UHGV virus genome: UHGV-1359774
Direction: 5' to 3' (one strand)
DNA from: a virus
Length of the DNA: 56,960 bases
Position 1 is the stretch's first letter. Every line of letters starts with the position of its first letter. Below, piece after piece: positions 1 through 56,960 of the stretch. The notes under the pieces are model-generated. The model saw nothing but the letters and a program-made list of their open reading frames with translations. It did no database searches and had not been told where the DNA came from. The position numbers were made by a program, and so were the translations under genes.

Positions 1-320
1 ACCTGCACGATGCCAACCTGTGCGGTGCCGACCTGCACGGTGCCAACCTGTGCGGTGCCAACCTGTGCGGTGCCAACCTGCACGATGCCGACCTGTGCGA
101 TGCCGACCTGCACGGTGCCAACCTGCACGATGCCGACCTGTGCGATGCCGACCTGCACGGTGCCAACCTGCACGATGCCGACCTGTGCGATGCCGACCTG
201 CACGATGCCAACCTGTGCGGTGCCGACCTGCACGGTGCCAACCTGTGCGGTGCCAACCTGTGCGGTGCCGACCTGCACGATGCCAACCTGTGCGGTGCCG
301 ACCTGTGCGGTGCCAACCTG
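1..320. repeat. 15-nt periodic coding repeat (variants of ACCTGCACGATGCCA / ACCTGTGCGGTGCCG), about 21 units
   Basis: Direct reading; the same repeat appears at 56770-56960. Confidence 0.85.
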
Positions 321-527
321 GACTTTTCTTGCTGGCCGCTTTGGTGCGGCAGCAAAAACGTCAAAGCCGATGATCGGCTTATTGCGCAGCTTATCTTCCA
401 CGTCACAAGGTTGGATATTTCTTGCTGTTCTGGTGGCGTCCGCGAAGCTGTGGAACATATCCGGGCAATGGCCGTAAGCGACCTTTTTTGCGAATACCGC
501 AGTGATGTCTCAAAAATTGAAGAGTAG
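3..527 (+). CDS. Pentapeptide-repeat protein, C-terminal part (no start in window; in-phase continuation of the CDS beginning at 56693 if the molecule is circular)
   Basis: Frame 3 reads ...[19 protein letters not shown]... A(D/N)LxG units, then a non-repeat C-terminus ending at TAG 525-527. The ORF track shows only the two out-of-frame translations of the repeat. Confidence 0.55.
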   Translation: MHDANLCGADLHGANLCGANLCGANLHDADLCDADLHGANLHDADLCDADLHGANLHDADLCDADLHDANLCGADLHGANLCGANLCGADLHDANLCGADLCGANLDFSCWPLWCGSKNVKADDRLIAQLIFHVTRLDISCCSGGVREAVEHIRAMAVSDLFCEYRSDVSKIEE

Positions 528-537
528 GAGATATGGG

Positions 538-813
538 ATGAAAATCACCCTTCACTTGCCGATGTTCCTTCCCGGCGGCATCGCATACGACTTCACCACC
601 CCCGCAGAACTGCGGGATTTTTTGTCTCGGCTGACGACGCCTGAGGGATACGCGGACGACAGCCCGTCCACTGTGACTCTGAGCGCTGACGCGGCTTATA
701 CGCTGGCCGCCCTCGCAGTACGTGGGGAAAGCCTGCCGCGTACCGATGAAGAGCGCCACACGACGGAGAACCATAATCCAACCCAGGCCGCACTGGCCGT
801 TGCCAACACATAG
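538..813 (+). CDS. hypothetical protein
   Basis: ORF with AGGAGA RBS upstream of the ATG at 538. Confidence 0.3.
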   Translation: MKITLHLPMFLPGGIAYDFTTPAELRDFLSRLTTPEGYADDSPSTVTLSADAAYTLAALAVRGESLPRTDEERHTTENHNPTQAALAVANT

Positions 814-822: not shown

Positions 823-1161
823 ATGCCCATACGCGACACATTGCTGGCTAGACTGGCCGAAGCAGAAGAACGCATTCGGCAGCTTGAGAGCGATAACCGC
901 AAGCTGCGGCGTATGCTGCTGGCCCATGAGCAGGATTTGGAATCTCTGGAGCCCGGCCACTATGTCGTCACAAGCGACGGATGGAATGGCCCCTATCACA
1001 ACCAGAAGCAGGCTCTTGAACTGGGCAAGGACTTTGCCCAGGAAGATTTCAGCTTCACGGTTGAGATTGTGGCCCGGCATGAGGCCCAGGAGCAGCCTGA
1101 CGACAATGCCGGGCTGTATGCGCCCTGGACCATGAACCCGCCCGCGCGCGTGGCCGCGTGA
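823..1161 (+). CDS. hypothetical protein with N-terminal coiled coil
   Basis: GGAGG RBS 7 nt upstream; heptad-like N-terminus (LARLAEAEERIRQLESDNRKLRR). Confidence 0.45.
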   Translation: MPIRDTLLARLAEAEERIRQLESDNRKLRRMLLAHEQDLESLEPGHYVVTSDGWNGPYHNQKQALELGKDFAQEDFSFTVEIVARHEAQEQPDDNAGLYAPWTMNPPARVAA

Positions 1162-1640: not shown

Positions 1641-1777
1641 TATGTGTATCCACAGAGGCGAGTGCCCGCATGCGGACATGACGTGCTCCACAGTCACATT
1701 TTGCCCGCTTGCGGATGATGAGGTTTATGTAGGCCCCGTGCAGGGGCCGTTTTTGTTCCAGCATGGAGAAAATAACT

Positions 1778-2662
1778 ATGACACAGTCAGCGGAACAGCT
1801 TTCGGAGCAGGCCAGCCGTTCTGCCAAGCCATTGAGCAATCAAGAGTTTGAGCAGGCTTTCGGCTTCAATCCGGCCCCTTTCTCATTGGAAAGCGTAGTA
1901 AGCAGCAAGGGCTTCCCACCGCAAAAGGTTGTGATCTACGGCGTGCCTGGCGTGGGCAAAACAACATTTGCCGCCACATGGCCCAAGCCCATACTGCTGC
2001 GCACGGAAGACGGCGCTTCGGCCTTGGATGTGCCGACCTTCCCCATGGTGGCCCGCAGTATTTCTGACCTGCGCGACGCATGCAACGCCCTGCTCCGAGG
2101 GAAACATGACTTCAAAACTTTGGTTCTTGATTCCCTGGATTGGACGGAGCCCATTGTCTGGCGCGAGGTTTGTCAGGAAGGACAAAAGAAAAACATCGAA
2201 GATTTCGGATATGGCAAGGGTTATGTCAAGGTAGACGACAAATGGCAGGCCATACAGGCGGGGTTTGAAAAGTTGCGCGACAAATGTGACATGCATATTG
2301 TCTGCATTGCACATGCTGTTCCAACTGTATTTGACCCACCCGACGCCGATCCTTACCAAAAGTACAACGTCAAACTGCACAAGCGTGCCTCTGCCATCTG
2401 GACGGAATGGGCAGAGATGCTGCTTTTTGTGAACTACAAGGCCAAGATTGTCACTGCCGAGGGAAGCTCCAAAGGAAAGGCCTTTGGTAAGGGCGAACGC
2501 GTCATCTACACGCAGGAGCGACCGGCCTACCAAGCCAAAAGTCGCTGGCCCCTGCCGGAAGAAATTTTTATCGGCCATGATTCCACATGGGCCGCGTTCC
2601 ATGAAGCGCTGAACGAAGCAAGCGAAGGGAAATACAACTATGAACATGATCGATCTGAATGA
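1778..2662 (+). CDS. P-loop ATPase, phage Sak4/RecA-like or AAA family
   Basis: Walker A GVPGVGKTT; GGAGAAA RBS before the second ATG; position in the early operon. Confidence 0.6.
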   Translation: MTQSAEQLSEQASRSAKPLSNQEFEQAFGFNPAPFSLESVVSSKGFPPQKVVIYGVPGVGKTTFAATWPKPILLRTEDGASALDVPTFPMVARSISDLRDACNALLRGKHDFKTLVLDSLDWTEPIVWREVCQEGQKKNIEDFGYGKGYVKVDDKWQAIQAGFEKLRDKCDMHIVCIAHAVPTVFDPPDADPYQKYNVKLHKRASAIWTEWAEMLLFVNYKAKIVTAEGSSKGKAFGKGERVIYTQERPAYQAKSRWPLPEEIFIGHDSTWAAFHEALNEASEGKYNYEHDRSE

Positions 2663-28882: not shown

Positions 28883-28893
28883 AGCATGCCTCC

Positions 28894-29794: not shown

Positions 29795-29840
29795 TTACGA
29801 CAAAGTATGGGTGGGATATGGATAGCGTTTTTTTGAACAT

Positions 29841-29869
29841 GAAAAAGCCGGGCATTTAAGGTGCCCGGC
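29841..29869 (-). terminator. intrinsic terminator (GCCGGGCA-loop-TGCCCGGC then TTTTT) after the Zn-ribbon gene
   Basis: Direct reading. Confidence 0.55.
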
Positions 29870-29874
29870 CGTGG

Positions 29875-30081: not shown

Positions 30082-30245
30082 GGTGCAAGCCCCTTGGCTC
30101 GCCCCGACCGCCCTATGGATTTTTTTATCAATTTCCGATTAACTACGCAGGGCGGATACTCTGCAAGCGGCTTCCCTCCGCTTGTGGGGCCGTGGGGATG
30201 CGTTGCTGCGCATCTCCGGCGGGGGCGCGTGAAGCCCCCGCCCCT

Positions 30246-30970: not shown

Positions 30971-30972
30971 GT

Positions 30973-32118: not shown

Positions 32119-32119
32119 T

Positions 32120-32578
32120 CTAGACCTCCTGTGCCCTGGGCCCTTCAAAAACGGTGTGCCAGGGGATATTGGTTTGTATCAGATACCGGCCTGTGTCCGG
32201 CGCGGTGCCGCGATCTTCGGTATAGGGTTCCCCACAATGCACGGCGCATGATCCGGCCGAGAAAGACTTGCGGCGGAAAGCGGCCTCAAGCGCTGAACCT
32301 GTCTGGAGGCCCTGCCCTACCGCCATCTTCTTCGGTAGGCTTTGTGTGATGATCCAGACGCCCACGCGGGTGGAAAGAGCCTGTGGGCCGCCCAGTTCGT
32401 CGGAAGTGGAAAGGCCCGGCTTGAAACTGTAGAGGATATGCAGCCTCGCCTGATCCAGATTGCTGTCGCTGTTCATGGGCAAAAGCTGATATTGTCCGGA
32501 ACCCGCCGGAAAAAGCGCGTCCAGCGCCTCGCTGGTCAGGGTGGAAAAGGCCCGCAGAATCAGATCAAGGCGCAGCAT
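32120..32578 (-). CDS. tail terminator / tail completion-like protein (by position)
   Basis: GGGGAAAA RBS; sits between the gp10-like and tube genes. Confidence 0.4.
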   Translation of the reverse strand: MLRLDLILRAFSTLTSEALDALFPAGSGQYQLLPMNSDSNLDQARLHILYSFKPGLSTSDELGGPQALSTRVGVWIITQSLPKKMAVGQGLQTGSALEAAFRRKSFSAGSCAVHCGEPYTEDRGTAPDTGRYLIQTNIPWHTVFEGPRAQEV

Positions 32579-32580
32579 GG

Positions 32581-32979
32581 CTAGATTTTCCCCAGCTCTG
32601 AGTTCATCTGGTGCTTCATCTCCTGGAGAGCGAGGGCAACCATGCCCTGAGGGGCGTTCTTCGACCAGCCTGCCTCAAGCGCCTCGATATATTCCAAATT
32701 GCTGCTGATATACCACATATCCGGATTTGCCTGGAGTATTTCCGCTACTGTCTTCTGCACAATGGTGTTTATCTCGCCTTTGTAGTTTCCCGGCGGCGGC
32801 ACATAGTCACTGGGCGCACTGGTGGAAAACTGCCACGAGCGCTTGGCTCTGCCCGTCTCCACCGGAGTGCGCTCCACGATTTTTTTGTAAGTCATAATCA
32901 CAATGCCCCTGACGGCTCCCAACGCCTCACCTTGGATTTTAAGCCGCACCAGTTCGTTGAGCGTGCGCTGGAAGTCGTC
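32581..32979 (-). pseudogene. 5'-truncated copy of the HK97 gp10-like gene, created at the duplication junction
   Basis: Identical to the 3' 369 nt of 37134..37637; the junction at 32979/32980 joins it in phase to the frame downstream of the RD-rich ORF. Confidence 0.5.
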
Positions 32980-33024
32980 GTCAGCTTCTTCAGCTTGGTT
33001 TTCATCCCGTCCGTGACCGTCCGC

Positions 33025-33435
33025 TCAGTCATAGCCGTCGTCATCGTCGTAATATTCCCGCTCACGGCGGCTACGACGCTCACGGCGGCGTTCACGGTCG
33101 TTTTCGTCCTCGTAGTAGCGGCGCTCACGCTCCGGGTCCACGAAGCCCTGAGTCTGCCAGTCGTCCTCGCGGTAACGGCGGCGGCCCATGTCATCGTGCT
33201 CGTCGCCGCGATAGCCCCAGTCCTCGTGATCGTCGTTGTACTCGTGGCGACGGCGGCGGAATTCGCCGTAGCGATTGCGCGGGGGCAGACGCCGGGCCTC
33301 ATAGCGGCCGCCGTCCTCCTCCATGCGCATCCGGCTCCGGCCGCCGGAACCGCGACGATAATCGTATTCGTAACGGTCATCGTCGCGCCGGTCGTCCCGT
33401 CCGCCATCACGGCGCATCATGATTCGCATGGTCAT
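33025..33435 (-). CDS. Arg/Asp/Glu-rich low-complexity protein (copy 2)
   Basis: Identical to 28472..28882. Confidence 0.5.
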   Translation of the reverse strand: MTMRIMMRRDGGRDDRRDDDRYEYDYRRGSGGRSRMRMEEDGGRYEARRLPPRNRYGEFRRRRHEYNDDHEDWGYRGDEHDDMGRRRYREDDWQTQGFVDPERERRYYEDENDRERRRERRSRREREYYDDDDGYD

Positions 33436-33446
33436 AGCATGCCTCC

Positions 33447-34259
33447 TTACGCGGTGGGCGTGGTGGTAGAGGCCGTGCGGATCGCGGCCATGTGACCAAT
33501 GATGTTCACGGTGTTGGCGTTCATTTCATTGCGCAGCTGCGAACCCAGACCAGCCACAGCCTGGGCCGTGAAGTTCTGGGCTTCCATGGACGCAATCTTG
33601 GACTTGGCGTCACAGAGCTGGGTTTGCAGGTTTTCGTAAGCGTAGCGGTCGATCAGCTGACGCGTGGCCGAACCTTCGGCCATAATGGTGCGCTGCGTGG
33701 TGCAGCAGCAATCATTGATGGCGCTGGTGACCTGATTGGTGCTCTGGCAGGACAGCAGGGCATTGTCCTTGCTGGAACTCAGGATGGCCGTGTTGACGCC
33801 GTTGAAGCCCTGACAGAGGCTGTTCTGAAGCGACTGGTCACCGGAGACGATGGTGGAATTCAGGCCCGCAAAGCCCTGAGTCAGGGTGTTGTTCACGCTG
33901 GCGGTCTGCGCGGCGGTTTCAGCGGCAAGACCGCCGAAGCCCTGGCAGGCGGCCAGATTCGCGGCGTTCTGGCCCTGCAAGACCTGCAATCCAACGCCAT
34001 TAATGCTGGTCTGGATGCCGCTCAGCGCGTCCAGCTCAGCGGTGGAAGCGGTGCCGCCGCCGGGATTCCCGGCGATAATCACCGAAGGAGCGCCGCCGCC
34101 GGAATTGCAGCAGCCGCCATTGCCGCCGTTGTTGCCAAAGCCGTTGCCCCACCAGGAGCCGAACAGCGCCCCGGCAAAGGCTCCAACAGCATCGCCCCAG
34201 CCGTTGTTGTTGCCGCCGTCATTGACCGAAAAAGTGGGGACAAACCCGTCCATGCCCAT
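33447..34259 (-). CDS. Gly/Asn/Gln-rich Cys-cluster protein (copy 2)
   Basis: Identical to 28894..29706. Confidence 0.5.
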   Translation of the reverse strand: MGMDGFVPTFSVNDGGNNNGWGDAVGAFAGALFGSWWGNGFGNNGGNGGCCNSGGGAPSVIIAGNPGGGTASTAELDALSGIQTSINGVGLQVLQGQNAANLAACQGFGGLAAETAAQTASVNNTLTQGFAGLNSTIVSGDQSLQNSLCQGFNGVNTAILSSSKDNALLSCQSTNQVTSAINDCCCTTQRTIMAEGSATRQLIDRYAYENLQTQLCDAKSKIASMEAQNFTAQAVAGLGSQLRNEMNANTVNIIGHMAAIRTASTTTPTA

Positions 34260-34427
34260 AGCAATACCTCCAAAGTTTTTCCCGGCGGGATGCCGGGCTT
34301 TGAAAAGATGATGGGCCAATGGATGGATTCTTACTAACTACGGATGGTTACGACAAAGTATGGGTGGGATATGGATAGCGTTTTTTTGAACATGAAAAAG
34401 CCGGGCATTTAAGGTGCCCGGCCGTGG

Positions 34428-34634
34428 TCATTCCAGCTTTGCTTTCCGGACTGGACGCAATCTGCCTTCCGGGCGTTCCAGCATGTACCGCGCGCCGCAT
34501 TCCTTGTTCTGGCATGTCCAGTAGGAAACGCGCGAATATTCGAGAGGATGGCCATCAAGGCCGATGGAAATCGTTCTGGTGCATTTTAAGGATTGCAGCC
34601 CGCATTTTGGGCAAAATTGTCTGCTGGTCGCCAT
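34428..34634 (-). CDS. small zinc-ribbon protein (copy 2)
   Basis: Identical to 29875..30081. Confidence 0.4.
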   Translation of the reverse strand: MATSRQFCPKCGLQSLKCTRTISIGLDGHPLEYSRVSYWTCQNKECGARYMLERPEGRLRPVRKAKLE

Positions 34635-34798
34635 GGTGCAAGCCCCTTGGCTCGCCCCGACCGCCCTATGGATTTTTTTATCAATTTCCGATTAACTACG
34701 CAGGGCGGATACTCTGCAAGCGGCTTCCCTCCGCTTGTGGGGCCGTGGGGATGCGTTGCTGCGCATCTCCGGCGGGGGCGCGTGAAGCCCCCGCCCCT

Positions 34799-35158
34799 CT
34801 ACCGCTTTTGGGCGCGTGCCCTGTTGTTCCGTTCTTCTTTTTTGTGGCGCTCCGCGTTTTTCAGGTCAACAAATTGCGCATCCAGGAGCCGCAGCCGCCA
34901 CAGCAGTTCTTCCGGCTCGGCATGACGCGCGATCTCCGCTAAAAGGGCCTCATGCCGGATTGCCAGGGTTGCGCCCGTCATGTTGTCCACCGGCGCGCCA
35001 TGCTGCCGCAGCATGTGCCATATCCGCATCGCTTCCTCGTTACGCGGACTCAGCGGCCAATGTCGGGTACAGTTGGCGCAATCTTGCTTCTCTTTGTGTA
35101 TCCAACGGCAGTCATTGCATGTGGGCCGGTCGCCAAATTGCCAACCGGCCCACTCCAT
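34799..35158 (-). CDS. chaperone T-part (copy 2)
   Basis: Identical to 30246..30605. Confidence 0.5.
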   Translation of the reverse strand: MEWAGWQFGDRPTCNDCRWIHKEKQDCANCTRHWPLSPRNEEAMRIWHMLRQHGAPVDNMTGATLAIRHEALLAEIARHAEPEELLWRLRLLDAQFVDLKNAERHKKEERNNRARAQKR

Positions 35159-35523
35159 CAGTTTTTTTCTTCTTCCAGCCGCCCTTCACGCGCGATATGC
35201 TTTAAACGGCCATACTGCCGGTCCATGAAGGCATTTTCGACGTCGCAGAGTTCGGCCACCATGTCGGGGCTGAACGGCAGCGGTTCATTGTTCAAATCCA
35301 TCAAACCGTCCCAACCCACAATCTGCGTCTGCATGACCACGGGCAGGATTCTGAGCCCGGCCAGATCGGTGTCATAGCCGCATTCGGCCATGACCTTTTT
35401 TACCACCTCTTGCTGCGCCGTGGCAGACAGGGGCTTGCAAAGAAAATACGCCTGGCCGTCCGGCGTCAGATCCATGCGAAAAACCTTTTCCTGATATTTC
35501 CTGGTCAGAACCGTGAAGGCCAT
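35158..35523 (-). CDS. tail assembly chaperone G-like (copy 2)
   Basis: Identical to 30605..30970. Confidence 0.55.
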   Translation of the reverse strand: MAFTVLTRKYQEKVFRMDLTPDGQAYFLCKPLSATAQQEVVKKVMAECGYDTDLAGLRILPVVMQTQIVGWDGLMDLNNEPLPFSPDMVAELCDVENAFMDRQYGRLKHIAREGRLEEEKN

Positions 35524-35525
35524 GT

Positions 35526-36671
35526 TTACGCTCCTTGAATGGTGATGGTGAAACTGTCTTCGCCCTGGATGCCCAAAGCCGTGCCCGTGCTGTCCAGCGT
35601 CAGAACAGCGTCGTCCTCACCGACTGTGGGAGAGGAAAGACGCACCTTGGGTGTGTTCACCGCAATACTGCCGTTGCTGTTTTCCGCCTTCAGGGTCACG
35701 TCCAGGGTCACGCCTTCCAGCGTTTGACCAAAGCGTACGGCCTCTGCTTTACGGAAGTACACGCTCATATCCATGCTGATGCTGCGCTTATTGTCCGACG
35801 CCTCGCCGGGGAACTTGTCTCCGACTTCCTCAAGGAATTGCGTGGGCAGCGACGCGGTGAAGGTGGAAGGACGGATACGGCCCTCTACACCATCAATCAG
35901 CAGTGAAACGCTGTTGTTTTCCACTTCCACGCCGATGGTATCCGCCTCCGGCAGCCAGGGGCCGATTTCCTCTCCCGCCAGCCAGTCCGTGGGCGCGGTG
36001 TCCAGAACCAGCGTATCCGTGGCCGTGTCGATGGCCGTAATCTGGTATTCTTGGCTCTCATTCTTGCTCACGTTACGGATGAAACCGCCCACGCTGAAGG
36101 CCAGGGATTGCCCCGTTTCCAGCTTGATTGTGGTAGTGTCCGGAACTTCGGCCAACTCACCGAAGCCGACCACGCCAGCCCGGCGGCCACGCCCGGAGAA
36201 GGTGAAGATAGTCAGGCCGTCGCGATCCACGGCCCATTCCAGGCTTTCCACGGTGCAACCGCTCATAAACTGCACGGTCTGGTCATTTTGCAGCCAGAGG
36301 GACGCCGTGGGGCGGCAAGTGGAAAGCCGGTACTGGCGCTTATTGGCTGTGCTGGCATCCACAATGCCGAGAGTGGCCCGGAACAGCGCGTCACCCTGCG
36401 GGGCACCGGCGGACGGCGTAAGCCGCGCCACCATGGGCAAGGACCAGTCGCCAGGCGGCATGGCGTCCCGGCTCTGGCTCACCACATCCAGGGTGGCGGC
36501 AAGTTCCGGGCTATCCGTGAATGTGGGTGTCTGCGCGATGGAACCGCGCCCGGCTGGACGGATAAACCCGGCGGGCACCGGCTTTTCAAGTATACCGGTG
36601 GCTGTTTCCAGCATGACAAAGGCGCGCTGGACATTGCTTTTTTGCACGGTCGAGCACATGGCTTGCGACAT
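35526..36671 (-). CDS. major tail (tube) protein (copy 2)
   Basis: Identical to 30973..32118. Confidence 0.55.
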   Translation of the reverse strand: MSQAMCSTVQKSNVQRAFVMLETATGILEKPVPAGFIRPAGRGSIAQTPTFTDSPELAATLDVVSQSRDAMPPGDWSLPMVARLTPSAGAPQGDALFRATLGIVDASTANKRQYRLSTCRPTASLWLQNDQTVQFMSGCTVESLEWAVDRDGLTIFTFSGRGRRAGVVGFGELAEVPDTTTIKLETGQSLAFSVGGFIRNVSKNESQEYQITAIDTATDTLVLDTAPTDWLAGEEIGPWLPEADTIGVEVENNSVSLLIDGVEGRIRPSTFTASLPTQFLEEVGDKFPGEASDNKRSISMDMSVYFRKAEAVRFGQTLEGVTLDVTLKAENSNGSIAVNTPKVRLSSPTVGEDDAVLTLDSTGTALGIQGEDSFTITIQGA

Positions 36672-36672
36672 T

Positions 36673-37131
36673 CTAGACCTCCTGTGCCCTGGGCCCTTCA
36701 AAAACGGTGTGCCAGGGGATATTGGTTTGTATCAGATACCGGCCTGTGTCCGGCGCGGTGCCGCGATCTTCGGTATAGGGTTCCCCACAATGCACGGCGC
36801 ATGATCCGGCCGAGAAAGACTTGCGGCGGAAAGCGGCCTCAAGCGCTGAACCTGTCTGGAGGCCCTGCCCTACCGCCATCTTCTTCGGTAGGCTTTGTGT
36901 GATGATCCAGACGCCCACGCGGGTGGAAAGAGCCTGTGGGCCGCCCAGTTCGTCGGAAGTGGAAAGGCCCGGCTTGAAACTGTAGAGGATATGCAGCCTC
37001 GCCTGATCCAGATTGCTGTCGCTGTTCATGGGCAAAAGCTGATATTGTCCGGAACCCGCCGGAAAAAGCGCGTCCAGCGCCTCGCTGGTCAGGGTGGAAA
37101 AGGCCCGCAGAATCAGATCAAGGCGCAGCAT
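36673..37131 (-). CDS. tail terminator-like protein (copy 2)
   Basis: Identical to 32120..32578. Confidence 0.4.
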   Translation of the reverse strand: MLRLDLILRAFSTLTSEALDALFPAGSGQYQLLPMNSDSNLDQARLHILYSFKPGLSTSDELGGPQALSTRVGVWIITQSLPKKMAVGQGLQTGSALEAAFRRKSFSAGSCAVHCGEPYTEDRGTAPDTGRYLIQTNIPWHTVFEGPRAQEV

Positions 37132-37133
37132 GG

Positions 37134-37637
37134 CTAGATTTTCCCCAGCTCTGAGTTCATCTGGTGCTTCATCTCCTGGAGAGCGAGGGCAACCATGCCC
37201 TGAGGGGCGTTCTTCGACCAGCCTGCCTCAAGCGCCTCGATATATTCCAAATTGCTGCTGATATACCACATATCCGGATTTGCCTGGAGTATTTCCGCTA
37301 CTGTCTTCTGCACAATGGTGTTTATCTCGCCTTTGTAGTTTCCCGGCGGCGGCACATAGTCACTGGGCGCACTGGTGGAAAACTGCCACGAGCGCTTGGC
37401 TCTGCCCGTCTCCACCGGAGTGCGCTCCACGATTTTTTTGTAAGTCATAATCACAATGCCCCTGACGGCTCCCAACGCCTCACCTTGGATTTTAAGCCGC
37501 ACCAGTTCGTTGAGCGTGCGCTGGAAGTCGTCCACGTCCTTGCAGCGTTTGTTGTTGAGCTCCTTGATACGCGCGGCAAAGGCTTTTCTGGTGCGGTCTA
37601 TACCGTCAAGCTCTTTGGCAAGTGCGTCAGCCATCAC
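37134..37637 (-). CDS. HK97 gp10-family tail-component protein (full length)
   Basis: Block RTPVETGRAKRSWQF ... NLEYIEALEAG matches the gp10 family. Confidence 0.5.
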   Translation of the reverse strand: MMADALAKELDGIDRTRKAFAARIKELNNKRCKDVDDFQRTLNELVRLKIQGEALGAVRGIVIMTYKKIVERTPVETGRAKRSWQFSTSAPSDYVPPPGNYKGEINTIVQKTVAEILQANPDMWYISSNLEYIEALEAGWSKNAPQGMVALALQEMKHQMNSELGKI

Positions 37638-48485: not shown

Positions 48486-48995
48486 CTAGCTCAACCTCCT
48501 GATCTGTACCACGGCCTTGCCGCTCCGCACATTTTCGCCCCACTCCATGGACAGCCGCCGCACCTGACTGTCATCGAGCCAGACCCCGGCGTGCGTCAGG
48601 GCGTCAAGGAGGGCCTTGCCACCAAAGTTGTCGAGGTCACGCCGCCGGTTGTCCGGCGCATGGAGGGTTACAGCTACGGCGACGCCAGAGCCTATTCTAA
48701 GAGCCTTTCGTTCCGCCATGACCGTTTGTGTCACCTGCTGTCGAAAATCCCTTCCCGCTACGGATATAAGAGTTCTTGTGGCATTCCCGATGCGTACTGA
48801 CCGCCAGTAATGATTTACAGACGGTGGGAACGGCAGTTCTAGGACCAAGGGTGGATAAGCATCCTTGTCCGGGTTCGCCGGACACGATACGCAGCACAGG
48901 TCGCCGTCGATGGCACGGGGGCAGGTGAGGCCGGGGCAAGCGCTCACAGGTCGTTCCCCGCCGCGGCGTATTGGCCACTCGTTTTGGCGGCCCAC
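48486..48995 (-). CDS. rusA: RusA-family Holliday junction resolvase (true start probably internal, near LVLELPFPPSVNHYW)
   Basis: PPSVNHYW ... D..N..K..LD.L...G...DD pattern. Confidence 0.65.
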   Translation of the reverse strand: MGRQNEWPIRRGGERPVSACPGLTCPRAIDGDLCCVSCPANPDKDAYPPLVLELPFPPSVNHYWRSVRIGNATRTLISVAGRDFRQQVTQTVMAERKALRIGSGVAVAVTLHAPDNRRRDLDNFGGKALLDALTHAGVWLDDSQVRRLSMEWGENVRSGKAVVQIRRLS

Positions 48996-50347
48996 TCATC
49001 GGCGTGGGTATCCTCGACAAAATCCGAAAATGGCTTGTCAAAGAGCAGATTCGCCGCGCCCGTGCCCGAACTACGCCCCTTGGCGACGATGGCCCGCACC
49101 GGCATACGGGCAAGCCCCTGATTCGCCTTTTTTGCGTGCAGAAACATGACGATATCCGCGTCTTGCTCAATTGCCCCGGACTCGCGCAAATCAGACAGCC
49201 GCGGGGCGCGATCCGATTCCTCTACCTGCCGATTGAGCTGGGAGAGCAGCAACACCGGGCAGTCGCAATCCAGGGCGAGTTGCTTCATGGCGCGAGACAT
49301 TTCGGCCACCTCACGCTCCCGGCTGTTTTGCTTCGTATCGGGGTTGAGCAGTTGCAGGTAGTCCACCACCACGAGCCCAACGCCCTTGATGGACTTCGCC
49401 AACCGGCGAACCTCACGCGGTGTCATGGGCGCTATGGATTTTTCCACCACGCGCATGGGTAGGCCTGCGATCCTGGCCGAGGCCGCCTTGATGGCAGGCA
49501 GCACGTTGGGGGCCCGGTCCACACGCTGCCGAAAACACGAGAGGTCAATGCGCCCTTCCCTAGCCGTAAGACGGTTGCCGATGGTCAGGTCTTTGACTTC
49601 GCGGCTGATAAAAAGCGTGTCCACACCGTTGCGGGCCGTTTCCAGCGCCATGCATCCGGCCAAGGCCGTCTTGCCCATGCCAGGTCTGGCCGCGAGAATG
49701 ACAAGCTCGCCGGGGACGATGCCCCCACGCAATACCCGGTTCAACGATGGCCAGGGTGTCGGCAGTGGTTTTCCGGCTTCGCCGTTTTCAGCCGCGGCTA
49801 CAACACGCCCCATGAGTTCGGAAAGATCCATGGGCAGCACGTCCGCGCCGCCGTCCAGTTCAGCCGCCAGGGCTGTTAGTCCGCTGGCGATTTCCACCGG
49901 GTCGTTACCGTAGCGCTGGCAGTCACCGACGAGGCCCATGAGCATGGCTTCAGCCCGACGCTTGAGGCCTTCAGCGCGTACTTGTTGCGCGGCCAGCATC
50001 ACAGCGTCTTCTCTCCGGCCAAAAATGCTGAGCGTATAATCAGCCACCGTGGCCGCAGTGATCTCGTCAGGCCATGGTTCAGCCTTGGGATCATTGGCGG
50101 CCTGCCCTGCCCGGATGGCAGACCAGACGGCCTGGAGCGTCATCGGCGCACCGGATTCAGCCACAGCAGCCATGGCCCGGTAGATGGCTCGTGGAACCCT
50201 GGCCGTGAGCATGTCCAGGGGGCACACAGCCAGGAGATCACGGGCGCTGACCGTTTTGGCGCAGGCTGCCGTAAGGGCCATGTTCACGAATTCGTGCTCC
50301 CGGTCTTCACGCATTTCGACCACGTTGAATTTTTCGGCCATGTTCAC
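48944..50347 (-). CDS. dnaB: replicative DNA helicase DnaB-like
   Basis: Walker A ARPGMGKTALAG, LVVVDYLQLL, N-terminal DnaB helical domain; GGAGG RBS. Confidence 0.8.
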   Translation of the reverse strand: MNMAEKFNVVEMREDREHEFVNMALTAACAKTVSARDLLAVCPLDMLTARVPRAIYRAMAAVAESGAPMTLQAVWSAIRAGQAANDPKAEPWPDEITAATVADYTLSIFGRREDAVMLAAQQVRAEGLKRRAEAMLMGLVGDCQRYGNDPVEIASGLTALAAELDGGADVLPMDLSELMGRVVAAAENGEAGKPLPTPWPSLNRVLRGGIVPGELVILAARPGMGKTALAGCMALETARNGVDTLFISREVKDLTIGNRLTAREGRIDLSCFRQRVDRAPNVLPAIKAASARIAGLPMRVVEKSIAPMTPREVRRLAKSIKGVGLVVVDYLQLLNPDTKQNSREREVAEMSRAMKQLALDCDCPVLLLSQLNRQVEESDRAPRLSDLRESGAIEQDADIVMFLHAKKANQGLARMPVRAIVAKGRSSGTGAANLLFDKPFSDFVEDTHADEWAAKTSGQYAAAGNDL

Positions 50348-52245: not shown

Positions 52246-52719
52246 CTACGACTCTCCATTCTCGAGCACGTATTCCCGCCGATATTGCTCCACGGTCTCG
52301 TCGATCTCTGACTGGAGCGCACGCGCCAACATGGCGATCACCGCAGGCTTATTCCGCTTGTCACGAAGGGCTTGTTGGAATTCATCCAGGGCATGCAGAT
52401 CATCCAGAGCTTCGTCACGCACGTCGGCATGATCCGGGATCGAGCACAGCGGCACAGCCTTGAAACCGCACTTGGAATTGAGCCAGATCACCGGCGCGGG
52501 GGCACTTTTGAACGGCATATGGATGCAGGCGCGGATCAGCGGAAGGAGCGTATCAACCCCCAGCTTGCCGCCTTCATCGGTCGCATCAAGTTCGCGATAC
52601 AGTGTGGAGTAGCCCTTGCCGATTTCAGCGGCGATAGCCTTGAGGGGCCTACCGCTATCATCCACCATTCTGGCGCAGACTTCAGAAAGCGGAATGGTGT
52701 TAAAAAAGTCGCTATTCAC
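52246..52719 (-). CDS. CII-like / HTH early regulator (tentative)
   Basis: GTG start with AAGAGGAA RBS; HTH-like LKAIAAEIGKGYSTLYREL; position downstream of cro. Confidence 0.3.
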   Translation of the reverse strand: MNSDFFNTIPLSEVCARMVDDSGRPLKAIAAEIGKGYSTLYRELDATDEGGKLGVDTLLPLIRACIHMPFKSAPAPVIWLNSKCGFKAVPLCSIPDHADVRDEALDDLHALDEFQQALRDKRNKPAVIAMLARALQSEIDETVEQYRREYVLENGES

Positions 52720-53374: not shown

Positions 53375-53560
53375 TTACCTCATGCACTCAGCGCTAAACA
53401 GGCAAAGAATCCCCGCGATGAACAAGACCAGCGCGATACTCAGCCATTTCTTGCGGGCCACGCACAACCACGCAGGCAATTTCTGGGAGGCCCACAAAAC
53501 AAAATATCCGAGGATAGTCAGAGCGAAGGTGGCAATGTAGAGGATATCAACGCTATCCAT
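53375..53560 (-). CDS. 61-aa two-TM membrane protein overlapping the cro stop
   Basis: G-rich RBS. Confidence 0.35.
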   Translation of the reverse strand: MDSVDILYIATFALTILGYFVLWASQKLPAWLCVARKKWLSIALVLFIAGILCLFSAECMR

Positions 53561-53783
53561 CCCCGCCCCCTTCCCCCGGTTCGGGTTCGGGCGGCGTGGT
53601 GGGGGTGGCTATAACTCCTCGGTCAATTAGGAATTCGGCCAATCGCTCCCCAGTACTCTTTTTCTTCTGTCTCAGAAGATATCTGTTGAGTGATATGACA
53701 TTGACTCCAATCTCAGCGGCAAGCCGAGTTTGGCTCCACTTCGATTCCCGGAGGAAAATCTTTGTTTGCTCGCTAATGTTCAT
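53553..53783 (-). CDS. cro: Cro-like XRE-family HTH regulator
   Basis: HTH SQTRLAAEIGVNVISLNRYL; divergent from the cI-like gene. Confidence 0.6.
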   Translation of the reverse strand: MNISEQTKIFLRESKWSQTRLAAEIGVNVISLNRYLLRQKKKSTGERLAEFLIDRGVIATPTTPPEPEPGEGGGDG

Positions 53784-53892: not shown

Positions 53893-54525
53893 ATGGCTGC
53901 TGAAAAGCTCAGAAAATATTTCAACGCCATTATTGGCGAGGGAAAGCGTTTTTCTACCCAAACCGAAATGGCTAGATACCTAGGGCTTGGGCAAACCACC
54001 GCCACGAAGCTCTACGGCTTTTTAGATGGTGCGGATACTCGTTTTTCAGCCGTTGTAGACTGGCTTGAAAAACTGGGAGGCCAGATCGTATTGCCCGATG
54101 AGGAATTGGAACAATTTGAAATGATCCCCAAGGTTCGCGCTGTCGCTGGGGCTGGTGAAAGCCTAGTTACGTCCGGAAAGGTAACAGGGCAGTATGCTTT
54201 TCGTGAGAGTTTTCTAAAACGCGAACATATCCACCCTGAAAAATGCGTCCTGATGTGCGTCGCGGGCGATTCGATGGAACCCTTAATTCGGGAGGGTGAC
54301 ACTATTTTAGTGGATGAATCCGAAAAGGGTAAAGAGTTGCGTGATGGGCATATCTTTGTGGTGGGGTTGAGTGATGCCCTGATGGTCAAGCGCCTTGCCA
54401 AAATCCCCAGTGGTTGGAGGCTTTGCTCTGAAAACAAAGAACGTCCGGATATTGATGTACAGGGGGATGACTTCAATACGTTCCGTGTTTATGGCCGTGT
54501 CCGCTGGTTTGGGCGAGTGGTTTAG
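53893..54525 (+). CDS. cI: CI-like repressor with C-terminal S24 (LexA-type) peptidase domain
   Basis: N-terminal HTH; C-terminal GDSMEP ... TILVD ... K block. Confidence 0.75.
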   Translation: MAAEKLRKYFNAIIGEGKRFSTQTEMARYLGLGQTTATKLYGFLDGADTRFSAVVDWLEKLGGQIVLPDEELEQFEMIPKVRAVAGAGESLVTSGKVTGQYAFRESFLKREHIHPEKCVLMCVAGDSMEPLIREGDTILVDESEKGKELRDGHIFVVGLSDALMVKRLAKIPSGWRLCSENKERPDIDVQGDDFNTFRVYGRVRWFGRVV

Positions 54526-54964: not shown

Positions 54965-55296
54965 AACTTTGCCAACGGGGGAAAGGCGGCGAACACGGGC
55001 CACGGCCCAGAAGCCGTTTGAACCTCGGAGGCTAAGGCCAACAAGTACCGGGTGCAGGCTACCTGCAAACGGGGCATGGCGGAAGGTGGATGCCTGATGA
55101 TGCCAGCCCGCAGTGGGAAAGGACACGAAGCACAGGGAAGGCCCGACAATTCCAACGGCATCGCCCGGCCGTCAAGAAGGGGCGCTCGAAAAACCACGGC
55201 GTGCTGCGCCGGAGTCTGTGAAGGACGAGAAAAACTTTAACTTCTTTTTGATTTTTCCTTGCCACCATTTTTATGGTGGCGAGATAAAAAGCAAAA

Positions 55297-55790
55297 TGGA
55301 GTTCGATATGAAAATAATCCCTCTTACAAAGGGCTTTAGTACAATCATTGACGATGAAGACTATGAATTGTTCTGTAGATTCAAATGGACAGCAAATGTG
55401 ACACGGCAAGATAAGGTATATGTAGTCCGTGGAACAAAAGAAAAAAAGAAGATATTTCTTCATCGTGAAATTTCAAAATGCCCTTCTGAATTGGTAGTTG
55501 ACCATATAAATGGTGACACTCTTGATAATAGAAGATCAAATTTGCGCTGCGTATCAAAGAGGATAAATACTCTAAATGCAAAAAATCTTTCAAGGAACAC
55601 ATCTGGGTATAGAGGAGTTTCTTTTTCCAAAGAAACAAAAAAGTGGGTTGCTAAACTAGAAGTTAGCTCTAATGGGCAAAGAAATACAATCTGTTTAGGA
55701 AGTTATAACTCTCCAGAACTCGCATTTGAAGCGTACAAAAAGAAATTTTCAGAACTATACGGGAATTTAGAAATGGTTTGGCTGAAATGA
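55297..55790 (+). CDS. HNH endonuclease with AP2 DNA-binding domain (homing-endonuclease-like), AT-rich
   Basis: VVDHINGDTLDNRRSNLRCVS HNH block; SGYRGVSFSKETKKWVAKL AP2 block. Confidence 0.6.
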
Positions 55791-56325: not shown

Positions 56326-56406
56326 GGCCTATGGCGAGTTCTGCGCTCGCCAATGAGCAGGGCCGGAGACATCGTGTCTCTGGCTTTTTCTTTTGTCCCC
56401 TTCTGA

Positions 56407-56619
56407 ATGAGGCTGGATATGCTGAAAGAGGTAAGCAAGGAAGACTTTTACAAGGTGATAGATACGCTCGACGTCAGCCCATATCCCCAAGGAAAATGGG
56501 ATGACCTGGGAGGATACAAAAGCATCTGGAGGTTACGGAACGGCGAACTTGTCGGCGTATCTGAGCCGAAAACTTACGGTTTTACTGAGAAAAAATATTT
56601 CCTCGTTCAGGATGACTGA
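56407..56619 (+). CDS. hypothetical protein
   Basis: ORF. Confidence 0.3.
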   Translation: MRLDMLKEVSKEDFYKVIDTLDVSPYPQGKWDDLGGYKSIWRLRNGELVGVSEPKTYGFTEKKYFLVQDD

Positions 56620-56692
56620 CACCCCGGCAGCCCATGCTGCCTCTTCCACACCCGCCGCCACATGAGTGGCGACGGGGAATGGAGGATTTACC

Positions 56693-56960
56693 ATGCGAGA
56701 GCTTACCAACAACGAGATACAGATTCTTCAACGGCACGCGAAATGGCTGGTATCTGGCGGGACTGATGGCGAAAGTGCCAACCTGTGCGGTGCCGACCTG
56801 CACGGTGCCAACCTGCACGATGCCAACCTGTGCGGTGCCGACCTGCACGGTGCCAACCTGTGCGGTGCCAACCTGTGCGGTGCCAACCTGCACGATGCCG
56901 ACCTGTGCGATGCCGACCTGCACGGTGCCAACCTGCACGATGCCGACCTGTGCGATGCCG
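56693..56960 (+). CDS. pentapeptide-repeat protein, N-terminal part (runs off the window end; continues in phase at position 3)
   Basis: GGAGGA RBS; [23 protein letters not shown] then A(D/N)LxG repeats. Confidence 0.65.
56770..56960. repeat. 15-nt periodic coding repeat, same family as at 1-320
   Basis: Direct reading. Confidence 0.85.

What the first reader, a model, noticed from the sequence alone, without database searches (positions are those of the whole stretch)
56693..56960. Phage-encoded pentapeptide-repeat protein in the early-left operon: candidate DNA mimic or anti-defence factor, and an assembly hazard
About 35 consecutive A(D/N)LxG units, encoded by a near-perfect 15-nt DNA periodicity, span the window junction (see also 3-527). 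Pentapeptide-repeat proteins such as Qnr/MfpA fold into DNA-like beta-helices. An early-expressed phage copy could protect against or interfere with host DNA-binding enzymes such as topoisomerases or restriction systems. The repeat is easily collapsed or expanded by assemblers, so the true unit count is uncertain.
Basis: partly seen in the sequence, partly recalled or inferred. Interest (0 to 1): 0.6.

Follow-up and report, generated by a model that had tools for sequence, protein, structure and literature searches.

The report
Phage pentapeptide-repeat protein, variable-length array
A temperate phage, probably of sulfate-reducing gut bacteria (Desulfovibrionaceae), encodes a rod-shaped repeat protein of unknown function whose repeat number changes quickly and breaks genome assemblies; it belongs to a large, uncharacterised family of phage proteins and is a modest lead, not a new kind of system.

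Summary
An ORF starts at ATG 56693, runs off the window end, resumes at base 1 and stops at 525-527. It encodes perfect A(D/N)L(C/H)(G/D) pentapeptides from a 15-nt tandem array (Pfam PF00805, E=1e-66).

The count of about 35 units is probably an over-count. The first 150 nt of the window equal the last 150 nt exactly, so the contig is a circular assembly whose overlap lies inside the array. That gives 24 units and 214 aa when the overlap is collapsed, against 34 units and 264 aa when the ends are abutted. The true number cannot be known without long reads.

The gene lies downstream of a cI-like repressor and upstream of the recombination genes. Relatives share this synteny, which supports the "early-left" placement.

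It belongs to a large uncharacterised family (at least 1093 clusters at 50% identity). Members have a conserved N-terminal helix, a DNA-level tandem array of 1-45 units, and a conserved DFSCWPLWCGS-plus-helices C-terminal domain. Length variation is real: six paralogs in one finished Blautia genome carry 24-36 units. About 17% of related loci are cut inside the array.

It is not a Qnr or MfpA member. Array charge across the family runs from about -1.0 to +0.4 per unit, so DNA mimicry is not a conserved trait, although this copy is strongly acidic (net -21). Function is untested.

The parts
56693..56960 (+). 5' part of the PRP gene. It holds ATG 56693, the N-terminal helix/cap codons 56693-56776 ([28 protein letters not shown]), then 12 full 15-nt units plus 4 nt of the next unit.
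   Evidence: The N-terminal 28 aa are 96-100% identical to relatives P0001, P0004 and P0006. AF2 predicts a helix at residues 6-20 in both models.
1..326 (+). Continuation of the 15-nt tandem array. It holds the remaining 11 nt of the split unit, 20 full units, and the terminal degenerate unit ANLDF at 312-326.
1..150 (.). Terminal direct repeat: these bases are identical to 56811-56960. This is most likely a circular-assembly overlap, so these 10 units are counted twice if the window ends are simply abutted.
   Evidence: 150 is the only exact end/start overlap, with 0 mismatches.
321..527 (+). Conserved C-terminal domain (DFSCWPLWCGSKNVKADDRL... followed by 2-3 helices) and the stop codon TAG 525-527.
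   Evidence: Invariant residues are D147, S149, P152, L153, C155, S157, D163 and Q169. Helices at 164-176, 184-195 and 198-201 have block-mean pLDDT up to 94. There is no Pfam or PHROG match for this domain alone. A profile of the domain finds 1093 cluster representatives.
56681..56685 (+). Shine-Dalgarno-like GGAGG, 7 nt before the ATG.
   Evidence: The same GGAGGAATTTACCATG arrangement occurs in relative L006.
56359..56387 (+). Terminator-like hairpin (13-bp stem followed by a T run). It lies between the upstream 96-aa HTH gene and the 70-aa ORF that precedes the PRP gene.
538..813 (+). Downstream 91-aa gene starting 10 nt after the PRP stop. It is conserved next to the PRP gene only in close relatives.
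   Evidence: It has no Pfam, PHROG, PADLOC or NCBIfam match.
823..1161 (+). 112-aa gene, conserved after the PRP gene in the relatives L006, L007, L009 and L030.
   Evidence: No family match.
53893..54525 (+). cI-like repressor (Peptidase_S24) that anchors the immunity region. The PRP gene lies about 2.2 kb downstream on the same strand.
   Evidence: The divergent cro-like gene (53553-53783, -), CII/CP76-like gene (52246-52719, -) and DnaB (48944-50347, -) are in the same call.
1763..2662 (+). AAA_24 (Sak4-type) recombination ATPase. It marks the start of the recombination/DNA-metabolism module downstream of the PRP gene.
   Evidence: E=7.5e-47.

Best explanation
SHOWN.
- This is a genuine protein-coding gene (56693->end, 1->527) of an uncultivated temperate tailed phage. 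The host is probably a Desulfovibrionaceae bacterium.
- It encodes a pentapeptide-repeat protein with three parts:
  - an N-terminal cap helix;
  - an uninterrupted run of near-idealised A(D/N)L(C/H)(G/D) units, encoded by a DNA-level 15-nt tandem array;
  - a conserved C-terminal domain, the DFSCWPLWCGS motif followed by helices.
- It belongs to a large, uncharacterised family of prophage and phage proteins. In relatives the same caps flank arrays of 1 to 45 units.
- The arrays change by whole-unit gain, loss and shuffling. Within an array, synonymous sites are homogeneous, and only codons for outward-facing residues vary.
- The arrays also break short-read assemblies. In this window the contig ends overlap by 150 nt inside the array, so the parsimonious gene has 24 units (214 aa), not 34-35.

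INFERRED, about 0.35 probability for the functional part.
- The array folds into a right-handed quadrilateral beta-helix of about 6 coils, roughly 29 A long and about as wide as duplex DNA.
- The rod is capped at both ends and may dimerise through the C-terminal helices, as Qnr and MfpA do.
- It would be made early from the leftward operon as an accessory protein that binds a host DNA-handling enzyme (nuclease, restriction complex or topoisomerase) as an acidic, DNA-shaped decoy.
- The conserved caps would give specificity, and the rod length would be free to vary.
For: Gene and fold:
- Pfam PF00805 E=1.1e-66.
- phmmer against the PDB reaches 1e-34 to solved PRPs, with 40-58% identity in the Foldseek alignments.
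- The AF2 model built with an alignment gives beta rungs at about residues 90-147 (block-mean pLDDT 72-85), an N-terminal helix and confident C-terminal helices.
- The single-sequence model gives a strand every 5 residues from 30 to 147.
- All top PDB and BFVD fold hits are PRPs.

Family:
- 148 homologues were found with the C-terminal domain. Their lengths differ in steps of 5 aa, and the closest have 3-11 units with near-identical caps.
- A profile search finds 1093 representatives at E<=1e-3 and 257 at E<=1e-10.

Real length variation:
- The complete genome of Blautia producta DSM 2950 carries six paralogs with near-identical caps and 24, 24, 24, 25, 27 and 36 units.
- A 4.26-Mb Desulfovibrionaceae contig has 29 units. 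IMG/VR contigs have up to 45 units.
- The 15-nt DNA periodicity is also present in relatives.

Variation confined to outward positions:
- The window has 6 unit types and 4 variable nucleotides, all transitions and all nonsynonymous.
- The family-wide entropy profile shows the same restriction.

Assembly:
- The 150-nt exact terminal overlap.
- 11 of 65 loci are cut in the array; the binomial p for the 9 of 45 viral loci is about 6e-10 at 1% expectation.
- An N-gap inside the array of L006, and L083 starts in the array.

Position:
- The gene follows the cI-like repressor and precedes the recombination genes in the window and in relatives.
- Across about 35 diverse loci, the ORFs of at least 120 aa within 3 kb on the same strand include RecT (7), AAA_24 (4), Gp157 (3), DUF1351 (3), YqaJ (3), ERF (2), SSB (2) and S24 repressors (3).
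- Unrelated phages place PRPs beside ral (a P22-like Salmonella phage) or beside a host-nuclease inhibitor and a methyltransferase (a Listeria phage).

Charge of this copy:
- The 24-unit array has 20 Asp, no Lys or Arg, and a net charge of -21.
Against: - Function is entirely untested, and no experimentally characterised phage PRP was found in the literature searches.
- Array charge in relatives runs from about -1.0 to +0.39 per unit with a median near -0.2, and many arrays are Arg-rich. A negatively charged DNA mimic is therefore not the conserved property of the family.
- The array's DNA sub-period is 45 nt (3 units), not 60 nt (one 4-unit coil). There is therefore no face-specific surface pattern such as Qnr and MfpA have (and the unit order).
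- Relatives with only 1-3 units could not form even one coil, unless those arrays were collapsed by the assembler.
- Global model quality is mediocre: mean pLDDT 60-68 and TM <=0.38 to solved PRPs.
- A terminator-like hairpin lies upstream, so early co-transcription is not shown.
- PADLOC has no hit, but that library holds defence proteins, not anti-defence proteins.
- PRPs coexist with dedicated nuclease inhibitors in the Listeria and Salmonella phages. They are therefore not simple Gam or Abc substitutes.
Confidence: 0.6

Rival explanations
1. Passive ruler or spacer. The function lies in the conserved N-terminal helix and C-terminal domain, which would bind an unknown phage or host partner. 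The beta-helix is only a rigid rod of free length and surface, expanding and contracting neutrally by slippage. No DNA mimicry is involved.
For: - The caps are the conserved parts, with invariant D147, S149, P152, L153, C155, S157, D163 and Q169.
- Array length ranges from 1 to 45 units, and charge from about -1.0 to +0.39 per unit.
- Paralogs with identical caps carry different arrays.
- There is no 4-unit, coil-register periodicity in the DNA repeat.
Against: - Within arrays, variation is confined to outward-facing codons, and all of it is nonsynonymous. This looks more like maintained surface diversity than drift.
- The long arrays kept in finished genomes (24-36 units) suggest that length has some value.
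- No conserved partner gene was found across the family.
Confidence: 0.3
2. The long array in this window is largely an assembly artefact. The real gene has about 3-11 units like its closest relatives, and the assembler walked round a repeat cycle too many times.
For: - The closest relatives (87-100% identical caps) are assembled with 3-11 units.
- L001-L005 are 97-99% identical in the flanks but have 3 units.
- The contig ends lie in the array with a 150-nt overlap.
- The same contig carries an exact 4553-bp tandem duplication, which suggests trouble resolving repeats.
- The array contains nested higher-order repeats: 95% identity at a 195-nt offset when the ends are abutted.
Against: - Short-read assemblers usually collapse tandem arrays rather than expand them. 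The 3-unit versions come from Logan assemblies, which use k=31 (my knowledge of that resource, not tested here).
- Relative L006 has at least 31 units with a gap in the array.
- Finished or long contigs in the wider family carry 24-45 units.
- The unit order in the window is not a simple cycle.
Confidence: 0.15
3. A Qnr/MfpA/AlbG/McbG-type topoisomerase-protecting PRP. It would bind DNA gyrase or topo IV and rescue them from poisons such as toxins and microcins, or damp supercoiling during infection.
For: - It shares the fold class, and has weak sequence similarity to Qnr (1.5e-8) and MfpA (5.4e-8) structures.
- Its C-terminal helices could mediate dimerisation as in Qnr and MfpA. The review PMC10886550 states that PRPs typically dimerise through C-terminal helices.
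- Phages are known to encode gyrase inhibitors, namely Gip and Igy (PMC10886550).
Against: - The NCBIfam Qnr model scores 35.8 bits against a cutoff of 240. The MfpA model scores 42.6 against 360.
- The array is uninterrupted, with no counterpart of the Qnr loops or the break between repeat halves.
- The similarity is far stronger to idealised and cyanobacterial PRPs than to Qnr or MfpA.
- A variable length is hard to reconcile with docking across the gyrase saddle.
Confidence: 0.07
4. A metal-binding rod. The outward-facing Cys, His and Asp residues form ladders spaced about 4.8 A apart on the four faces and chelate Zn, Ni, Fe or Cu in a sulfide-rich host.
For: - The 24-unit array has 12 Cys, 11 His and 20 Asp, all at outward positions.
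- Cys and His at the i+1 position recur in the closest Desulfovibrionaceae-clade relatives.
Against: - Close relatives replace Cys and His by Arg, Ser, Tyr or Asn (for example ADLRY and ADLSN in P0011-P0015).
- The i+1 codons YRC (Cys, Tyr, Arg, His) are single-transition neighbours, so the composition may be mutational happenstance.
- There is no metal-related gene context.
Confidence: 0.05
5. A precursor of a ribosomally synthesised, post-translationally modified peptide of the 'Cys-every-fifth' (CefA) type.
For: The NCBIfam model NF038108 (CefA) scores 32.8 bits against a cutoff of 30.
Against: - The match covers only repeat residues 99-144, which share the ANLCG-like composition.
- The CefA model is 65 positions long, whereas this protein is 214-264 aa with conserved folded caps.
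- No radical-SAM/SPASM maturase was found among the neighbours scanned.
- Cys is not conserved at that position in relatives.
Confidence: 0.02

Closest known systems
Uncharacterised phage and prophage pentapeptide-repeat proteins (PHROG 7713). Annotated examples include Salmonella phage Salfasec13b gp046 (phrog_37032), Listeria phage LP-HM00113468 gp25, and the Rheinheimera and Caulobacter phage 'pentapeptide' proteins.
   Same: - They share the N-terminal 'L..H..WL....G.RA.L' helix followed by a long, near-idealised PRP array.
- They sit in the early region of temperate phages beside anti-restriction, nuclease-inhibitor and recombination genes.
- Their function is unknown.
   Different: - The C-terminal DFSCWPLWCGS-plus-helices domain of the window protein is absent from the Salmonella protein (the tblastn match ends at residue 146).
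- It is only weakly alignable in the Listeria protein.
- It matches no PHROG or Pfam model on its own.
- This copy is unusually acidic and rich in Cys and His.
Qnr / MfpA / AlbG / McbG topoisomerase-interacting pentapeptide-repeat proteins
   Same: - Right-handed quadrilateral beta-helix repeat class.
- Comparable size (about 200 aa).
- C-terminal helices that could mediate dimerisation.
- An acidic surface in this copy.
   Different: - It fails the curated family models by a wide margin.
- Its repeats are near-perfect and are repeated at the DNA level, whereas Qnr and MfpA repeats are degenerate.
- It has no loops or interruptions.
- Its length is hypervariable among relatives.
- It is phage-encoded and lies in an early operon.
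Idealised and cyanobacterial PRPs (Np275/Np276, HetL, Alr5209, Rfr23) and the synthetic 'beta1' solenoids
   Same: These are the best sequence matches (1e-34 to 1e-24) and the best local structural matches (rmsd 0.7-1.6 A over 52-58 residues). They also have consensus A(D/N)LXX units without insertions.
   Different: They have no relationship in the caps, the genomic context or the organism. The resemblance is one of repeat consensus, not of orthology. The NCBIfam Alr5209 model scores 103.8 against a cutoff of 125, and HetL 84.1 against 260, so neither is met.
Phage DNA-mimic anti-defence proteins (T7 Ocr, ArdA, lambda Gam)
   Same: They are early-expressed small acidic proteins encoded next to recombination or anti-restriction genes. 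This copy's array carries about 20 acidic residues over about 29 A. That linear charge density is similar to duplex DNA (my arithmetic and the known 4.8 A rise per coil).
   Different: The fold is unrelated: Ocr, ArdA and Gam are helical or mixed folds. There is no sequence similarity. The acidity is not conserved in the family. No functional data exist.

Membership tests
Pentapeptide repeat superfamily (Pfam PF00805) | Tandem A(D/N)LXX units scoring above the Pfam gathering threshold | tested here: met
   220.2 bits against a cutoff of 20.2, E=1.1e-66, with 7 matched stretches. There are 24 uninterrupted units with the overlap collapsed, or 34 with the ends abutted.
Pentapeptide repeat superfamily (Pfam PF00805) | Right-handed quadrilateral beta-helix (Rfr fold), four units per coil | tested here: inconclusive
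   AF2 places a strand every 5 residues from 30 to 147 and gives confident rungs at about 90-147. All top Foldseek hits are PRPs, with local rmsd of 0.7-1.6 A. However, mean pLDDT is 60-68 and global TM is <=0.38. The fold is safely inferred from 40-58% identity to solved PRPs.
Qnr family (NCBIfam NF033086) | Score above the curated equivalog cutoff | tested here: not met
   35.8 bits against a cutoff of 240. All QnrA/B/C/E/S/VC models score 25-32 against 450-500.
Qnr family (NCBIfam NF033086) | Two repeat halves, with loops A and B protruding from the helix | tested here: not met
   The array is an uninterrupted run of 5-residue units with no insertion.
Qnr family (NCBIfam NF033086) | Protects gyrase or topo IV from quinolones | not testable with these tools
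   Needs expression and MIC or supercoiling assays.
MfpA (NCBIfam NF000349) | Score above the curated cutoff | tested here: not met
   42.6 bits against a cutoff of 360.
CefA 'Cys-every-fifth' RiPP precursor (NCBIfam NF038108) | Score above the curated cutoff | tested here: met
   32.8 bits against a cutoff of 30, matching only repeat residues 99-144. The pass is marginal and driven by composition.
CefA 'Cys-every-fifth' RiPP precursor (NCBIfam NF038108) | Short precursor peptide encoded next to a radical-SAM/SPASM maturase | tested here: not met
   The protein is 214-264 aa with conserved folded caps. No radical-SAM family was found among the neighbouring ORFs scanned.
Phage early-region PRP family with the DFSCWPLWCGS C-terminal domain (unnamed, defined here) | N-terminal helix, PRP array and conserved C-terminal domain placed at the C-terminus | tested here: met
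   Relatives share 53-95% identity over the C-terminal 86 aa. The architecture is shared. The profile finds 1093 representatives, always with the domain at the C-terminus.
Phage early-region PRP family with the DFSCWPLWCGS C-terminal domain (unnamed, defined here) | Location in a temperate-phage early region, between the repressor and the recombination module | tested here: met
   The window, relatives L001-L009, and the neighbour census.
DNA-mimic anti-restriction/anti-nuclease proteins (Ocr, ArdA, Gam class; functional class) | Surface negative charge arrayed like the DNA backbone | tested here: inconclusive
   This copy has a net charge of -21 over 24 units. Relatives range from about -1.0 to +0.39 per unit. 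No reliable 3-D electrostatics could be computed.
DNA-mimic anti-restriction/anti-nuclease proteins (Ocr, ArdA, Gam class; functional class) | Binds and inhibits a DNA-binding defence or repair enzyme | not testable with these tools
   Requires biochemistry or genetics.

The most novel reading that the evidence does not exclude
The family is a widespread class of phage counter-defence proteins. A duplex-DNA-shaped beta-helical rod, capped by conserved ends, acts as a decoy for host DNA-end or DNA-binding enzymes. Its tandem-repeat coding makes rod length and surface chemistry evolve by slippage on arms-race timescales, in effect a protein-level 'VNTR' contingency locus in phages. The window copy, with about 20 Asp and alternating Cys/His ladders, would be an extreme DNA-like, and possibly metal-stabilised, allele.
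Probability: 0.15. Interest if true: 0.65.

Novelty: new member of a known kind. Interest (0 to 1): 0.35.

Why it matters
If the family proves to be a counter-defence or host-takeover factor, it would give a function to more than a thousand protein clusters in gut and environmental prophages. It would also give an example of repeat-number evolution tuning a phage-host interaction.

There is an immediate practical point. These arrays systematically break or collapse in metagenomic assemblies, which produces truncated gene calls, spurious 'direct terminal repeats' and wrong unit counts. Annotation and completeness tools should therefore treat them with care.

As it stands, the window gene is one more uncharacterised phage PRP, and nothing about its function has been shown.

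Tried and rejected
Searches that found nothing:
- Megablast of both flanks against 50,697 phage records gave no match. The phage has no close cultured relative. Its terminase is at most 46% identical to those of Xanthomonas and Stenotrophomonas siphophages.
- An exact-DNA search for the N-terminal coding segment found nothing in the metagenome or viral collections.
- An exact-protein lookup of the upstream 70-aa ORF found nothing.
- PADLOC gave no hit for the PRP or its neighbours, apart from a weak HTH match.
- Rfam at gathering threshold and tRNA scans of the whole window found nothing.

Analyses with limited return:
- The C-terminal domain alone has no PHROG match, and Pfam matched only the repeats.
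- A conserved partner gene was sought across the family. Partners are shared only among close relatives.
- Structure prediction with the family alignment left residues 42-85 unconfident, because relatives have shorter arrays. The single-sequence run fixed the array but lost the C-terminal domain. Neither model gives a good global superposition.
- Six literature searches for a characterised phage PRP found none.

Readings considered and rejected:
- Diversity-generating retroelement targeting. No reverse transcriptase was found among the larger ORFs scanned. The variable sites are A/G and T/C transitions in fixed unit types, not adenine-specific mutagenesis.
- A CefA RiPP precursor, which passes the HMM only marginally and has the wrong architecture and context.
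- A gene on another frame or strand. All frames are open through the repeat, but only the PRP frame joins the conserved N- and C-terminal domains.
- A Gam-replacement reading. No Gam-like Pfam family is present in the window's early-left ORFs. However, PRPs coexist with nuclease inhibitors in the Listeria and Salmonella phages, so this is not supported.
Full report
**1. The observation**

- The region 56693-56960 begins with ATG at 56693, preceded by GGAGG at 56681-56685.
- After 28 non-repeat codons it enters a 15-nt tandem array. The array runs to the last base of the window and resumes at base 1, ending at 326. The reading frame closes at TAG 525-527.
- Tandem Repeats Finder reports a 15-nt period with 83% matches, and a 45-nt period with 91-92% matches, at both ends.
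- The degenerate unit GCCRACCTGYRCGRT occurs 32 times in the window, against 0.00 expected in 100 shuffles.
- Every unit translates to A(D/N)L(C/H)(G/D). There are only six unit types and four variable nucleotides. All four are transitions, and all are nonsynonymous.
- The described feature is therefore real and far beyond chance.

**2. The unit count**

- The first 150 nt of the window are identical to the last 150 nt, and 150 is the only exact end/start overlap.
- A direct terminal repeat of this kind is the signature of a circular contig reported with overlapping ends.
- For simple concatenation to be right, the linearisation point would have to fall exactly on the boundary between two identical 150-nt tandem blocks.
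Collapsing the overlap gives 24 units and 214 aa.
- I take 24 as the parsimonious reading. The array contains nested higher-order repeats: identity is 92% at an offset of 150 nt and 95% at 195 nt in the abutted array.
- Short reads could not fix the number, so the true count stays open.
- The same contig also contains an exact 4553-bp tandem duplication, 28427-32979 = 32980-37532. That is a second sign of unresolved repeat structure.

**3. What the protein is**

- Pfam PF00805 matches at E=1.1e-66.
- phmmer against the PDB gives 1e-34 to 1e-24 for synthetic 'beta1' solenoids, HetL and Np275/276. It gives only about 1e-8 for Qnr and MfpA.
- An AlphaFold2 model built with a 41-sequence family alignment has these features:
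  - an N-terminal helix at residues 6-20;
  - beta rungs at about 90-147, with block-mean pLDDT of 72-85;
  - C-terminal helices at 164-176, 184-195 and 198-201, with block-mean pLDDT up to 94;
  - low confidence for residues 42-85, where the shorter relatives leave the alignment empty.
- A single-sequence model places a strand every five residues from 30 to 147, with pLDDT of 75-82 for 30-100.
- Foldseek against the PDB and against viral models returns only pentapeptide-repeat proteins at the top. Local rmsd is 0.7-1.6 A over 52-58 residues, but global TM-scores are poor, at most 0.38.
- I conclude that the quadrilateral beta-helix is well supported by homology. The predictions support it only moderately.

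**4. Family and relatives**

- A search with the last 86 residues found 148 proteins.
- The closest share the N-terminal 28 aa ([25 protein letters not shown]) and the C-terminal 68 aa (DFSCWPLWCGSKNVKADDRL...) at 87-100% identity.
- Those relatives carry only 3-11 units, and their lengths step by 5 aa: 109, 114, 124, 129, 134, 139, 144 and 149.
- Pairs such as P0001/P0002, P0008/P0009 and P0018/P0021 differ only by whole-unit deletions.
- A profile of the C-terminal domain finds 1093 cluster representatives at E<=1e-3 and 257 at E<=1e-10. They are 71-322 aa long, and the domain is always at the C-terminus.
- Named hosts with the full domain are Desulfovibrio and Desulfovibrionaceae. The DFSCWPLWCGS cap with a different tail extends into Firmicutes prophages.

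**5. Is the length variation real?** Both real variation and assembly error occur.

Real variation:
- The complete genome of Blautia producta DSM 2950 carries six paralogs with near-identical caps and arrays of 24, 24, 24, 25, 27 and 36 units.
- A 4.26-Mb Desulfovibrionaceae contig has 29 units. IMG/VR contigs have 33, 34 and 45 units.
- These arrays are also 15-nt DNA repeats with 80-85% matches.

Assembly error:
- Of 65 related loci, 11 have the array cut by a contig end. That is 9 of 45 viral loci, with a binomial p of about 6e-10 if 1% were expected.
- L006, a 56.8-kb scaffold of a related phage, has about 100 N inside an array of at least 31 units.
- L083 starts inside the array. The window itself breaks there.
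- The 3-unit versions in L001-L005 have flanks 97-99% identical to the window. They come from Logan assemblies, which use k=31 to my knowledge, and may be collapsed. I could not test this.

**6. How the arrays evolve**

- Across 34 arrays of at least 15 units, nucleotide entropy is concentrated at unit positions 4 and 10-15. These encode the outward-facing i-1, i+1 and i+2 residues.
- The Ala and Leu codons, including their four-fold degenerate third positions, are almost invariant within an array.
- This is the pattern expected for recent, repeated unit duplication and shuffling, that is, concerted evolution with a few surface variants retained.
- It does not fit a diversity-generating retroelement. 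No reverse transcriptase was found among the scanned ORFs, and the changes are not adenine-specific.

**7. Genomic context**

- The window is a temperate tailed phage, with these genes:
  - integrase 9076-10221;
  - terminase, portal, MuF, capsid and tail tube on the minus strand;
  - tape measure 22411-25422;
  - J-like tip protein 12360-16529.
- The immunity region holds a cI-like S24 repressor (53893-54525, +). It also holds a divergent cro-like gene, a CII/CP76-like gene and DnaB on the minus strand.
- Downstream of cI on the plus strand come, in order:
  - an HNH/AP2 gene;
  - small ORFs, including a 96-aa weak HTH match;
  - the PRP gene;
  - 91-aa and 112-aa genes;
  - an AAA_24 (Sak4-type) ATPase;
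  - PAPS reductase and DUF5131.
- Relatives L001-L009 show the same order. The 'early-left operon' label is therefore justified by synteny.
- Timing itself is not shown, and a 13-bp-stem terminator-like hairpin lies at 56359-56387.
- In a census of ORFs of at least 120 aa within 3 kb on the same strand in about 35 diverse loci, the commonest families were RecT, AAA_24, Gp157, DUF1351, YqaJ, ERF, SSB, S24 repressors and Dam.
- No partner gene is conserved across the family.
- Unrelated phages also place PRPs in this kind of region. In a P22-like Salmonella phage the PRP follows ral. In a Listeria phage it sits near a host-nuclease inhibitor and next to a methyltransferase. Those proteins share the N-terminal helix and the array but not the C-terminal domain.

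**8. Mechanism**

What is shown is the architecture, the family, the position and the repeat dynamics. What follows is inference.
- With four units per coil and a rise of about 4.8 A per coil (established PRP geometry), 24 units give about 6 coils, or about 29 A.
- This copy's array has 20 Asp, 12 Cys, 11 His and no basic residue, for a net charge of -21. That linear charge density is comparable to duplex DNA.
- The position and the company of anti-restriction and recombination genes make an accessory role against a host DNA-handling enzyme the most plausible function. I put it at about 0.35.

Against a conserved DNA-mimic mechanism:
- array charge in relatives spans about -1.0 to +0.39 per unit, and many arrays are Arg-rich;
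- the length varies 1-45 units;
- the DNA sub-period is three units, not the four of a coil, so no face-specific surface is maintained.

The main rival reading, at about 0.3, is that the conserved caps carry the function and the rod is a free-length spacer.

**9. Comparison with known families**

- The protein is a member of the pentapeptide-repeat superfamily.
- It is not a Qnr or MfpA family member: it scores 35.8 against a cutoff of 240, and 42.6 against 360. It also lacks their loops.
- It marginally passes the CefA 'Cys-every-fifth' RiPP model, 32.8 against 30. It has neither the size nor the maturase context of such precursors.
- PHROG 7713 (unknown function) matches the N-terminus and repeats at 1.9e-58.
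- No paper in the searchable library reports a function for a phage PRP. A review notes that PRPs usually dimerise through C-terminal helices, and that phages encode other gyrase inhibitors (PMC10886550).

**10. Verdict**

- The finding is real. It was correctly recognised as a PRP in an early-left position and as an assembly hazard.
- The unit count is inflated by a terminal overlap.
- The Qnr-like DNA-mimic reading fails the membership tests and is not a family-wide property.
- It is a new member of a known, though functionally uncharacterised, kind, and interest is modest.

Noticed in passing
window 28427-32979 and 32980-37532: An exact (100% identical) 4553-bp tandem duplication. It contains a tail-tube gene (PF18906; 30973-32148 on the minus strand, with the copy at 35526-36701) and neighbouring structural ORFs. 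It is either an assembly artefact or a very recent duplication. Without it and the 150-nt overlap, the genome would be about 52.26 kb.
   Followed up: partly
window 12360-28400; inverted repeat arms 16519-16546 and 22333-22360: The tail module has an odd orientation. The tape-measure gene (22411-25422) is on the plus strand, while terminase, portal, capsid, tube and the J-like tip protein (16529-12360) are on the minus strand. A 28-nt inverted repeat (93% complementary) flanks a low-GC (0.40-0.49) 5.8-kb segment. That segment carries an Endonuclease_1 gene (17269-18009), a 470-aa unknown ORF and a Bro-N/ORF6C gene. This may be an invertible or acquired cassette, or a misassembly.
   Followed up: partly
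window 56359-56387 (+): A strong terminator-like hairpin (13-bp stem plus a T run) directly after the 96-aa HTH gene, about 300 nt upstream of the PRP start. No sigma-70-like promoter was found between it and the gene. Expression may need antitermination or a non-canonical promoter.
   Followed up: no
L006 8940-9420: In a related phage, the PRP gene is preceded by a stretch of about 480 nt with no called gene. It begins with a TTGACT...TATATT promoter-like element and is purine-rich. It could be a leader or a regulatory RNA. The equivalent region in the window holds a 70-aa ORF (56407-56619) that has no homologue on record.
   Followed up: no
window 4099-4881 and 5265-6194: A PAPS_reduct (DndC-like fold) gene and a DUF5131 (Gp37/Gp68) gene lie close together downstream. 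L001 and L002 carry both; L006 has only PAPS_reduct and L009 only DUF5131. They may form a phage DNA-modification module. Lar_restr_allev genes occur further downstream in L006 and L007.
   Followed up: no
window 55113-55790 (+): An HNH_3 + AP2-domain (homing-endonuclease-like) gene is inserted between the cI-like repressor and the PRP gene. The close relatives L001-L003 show no HNH/AP2 family call at that position.
   Followed up: no
L022-L027 (Blautia producta DSM 2950, NZ_CP039126.1): Six paralogous PRP genes occur at six separate sites in one finished genome. Their caps are near-identical, and their arrays have 24-36 Arg-rich units. Three copies are identical. This would be a good natural system for measuring array turnover.
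   Followed up: partly
PRP residues 99-144 (window about 57-194 in the collapsed model): The repeat marginally passes the NCBIfam 'Cys-every-fifth RiPP peptide CefA' model (32.8 bits against a cutoff of 30). This is probably a compositional false positive, and it could mislead automated annotation.
   Followed up: yes
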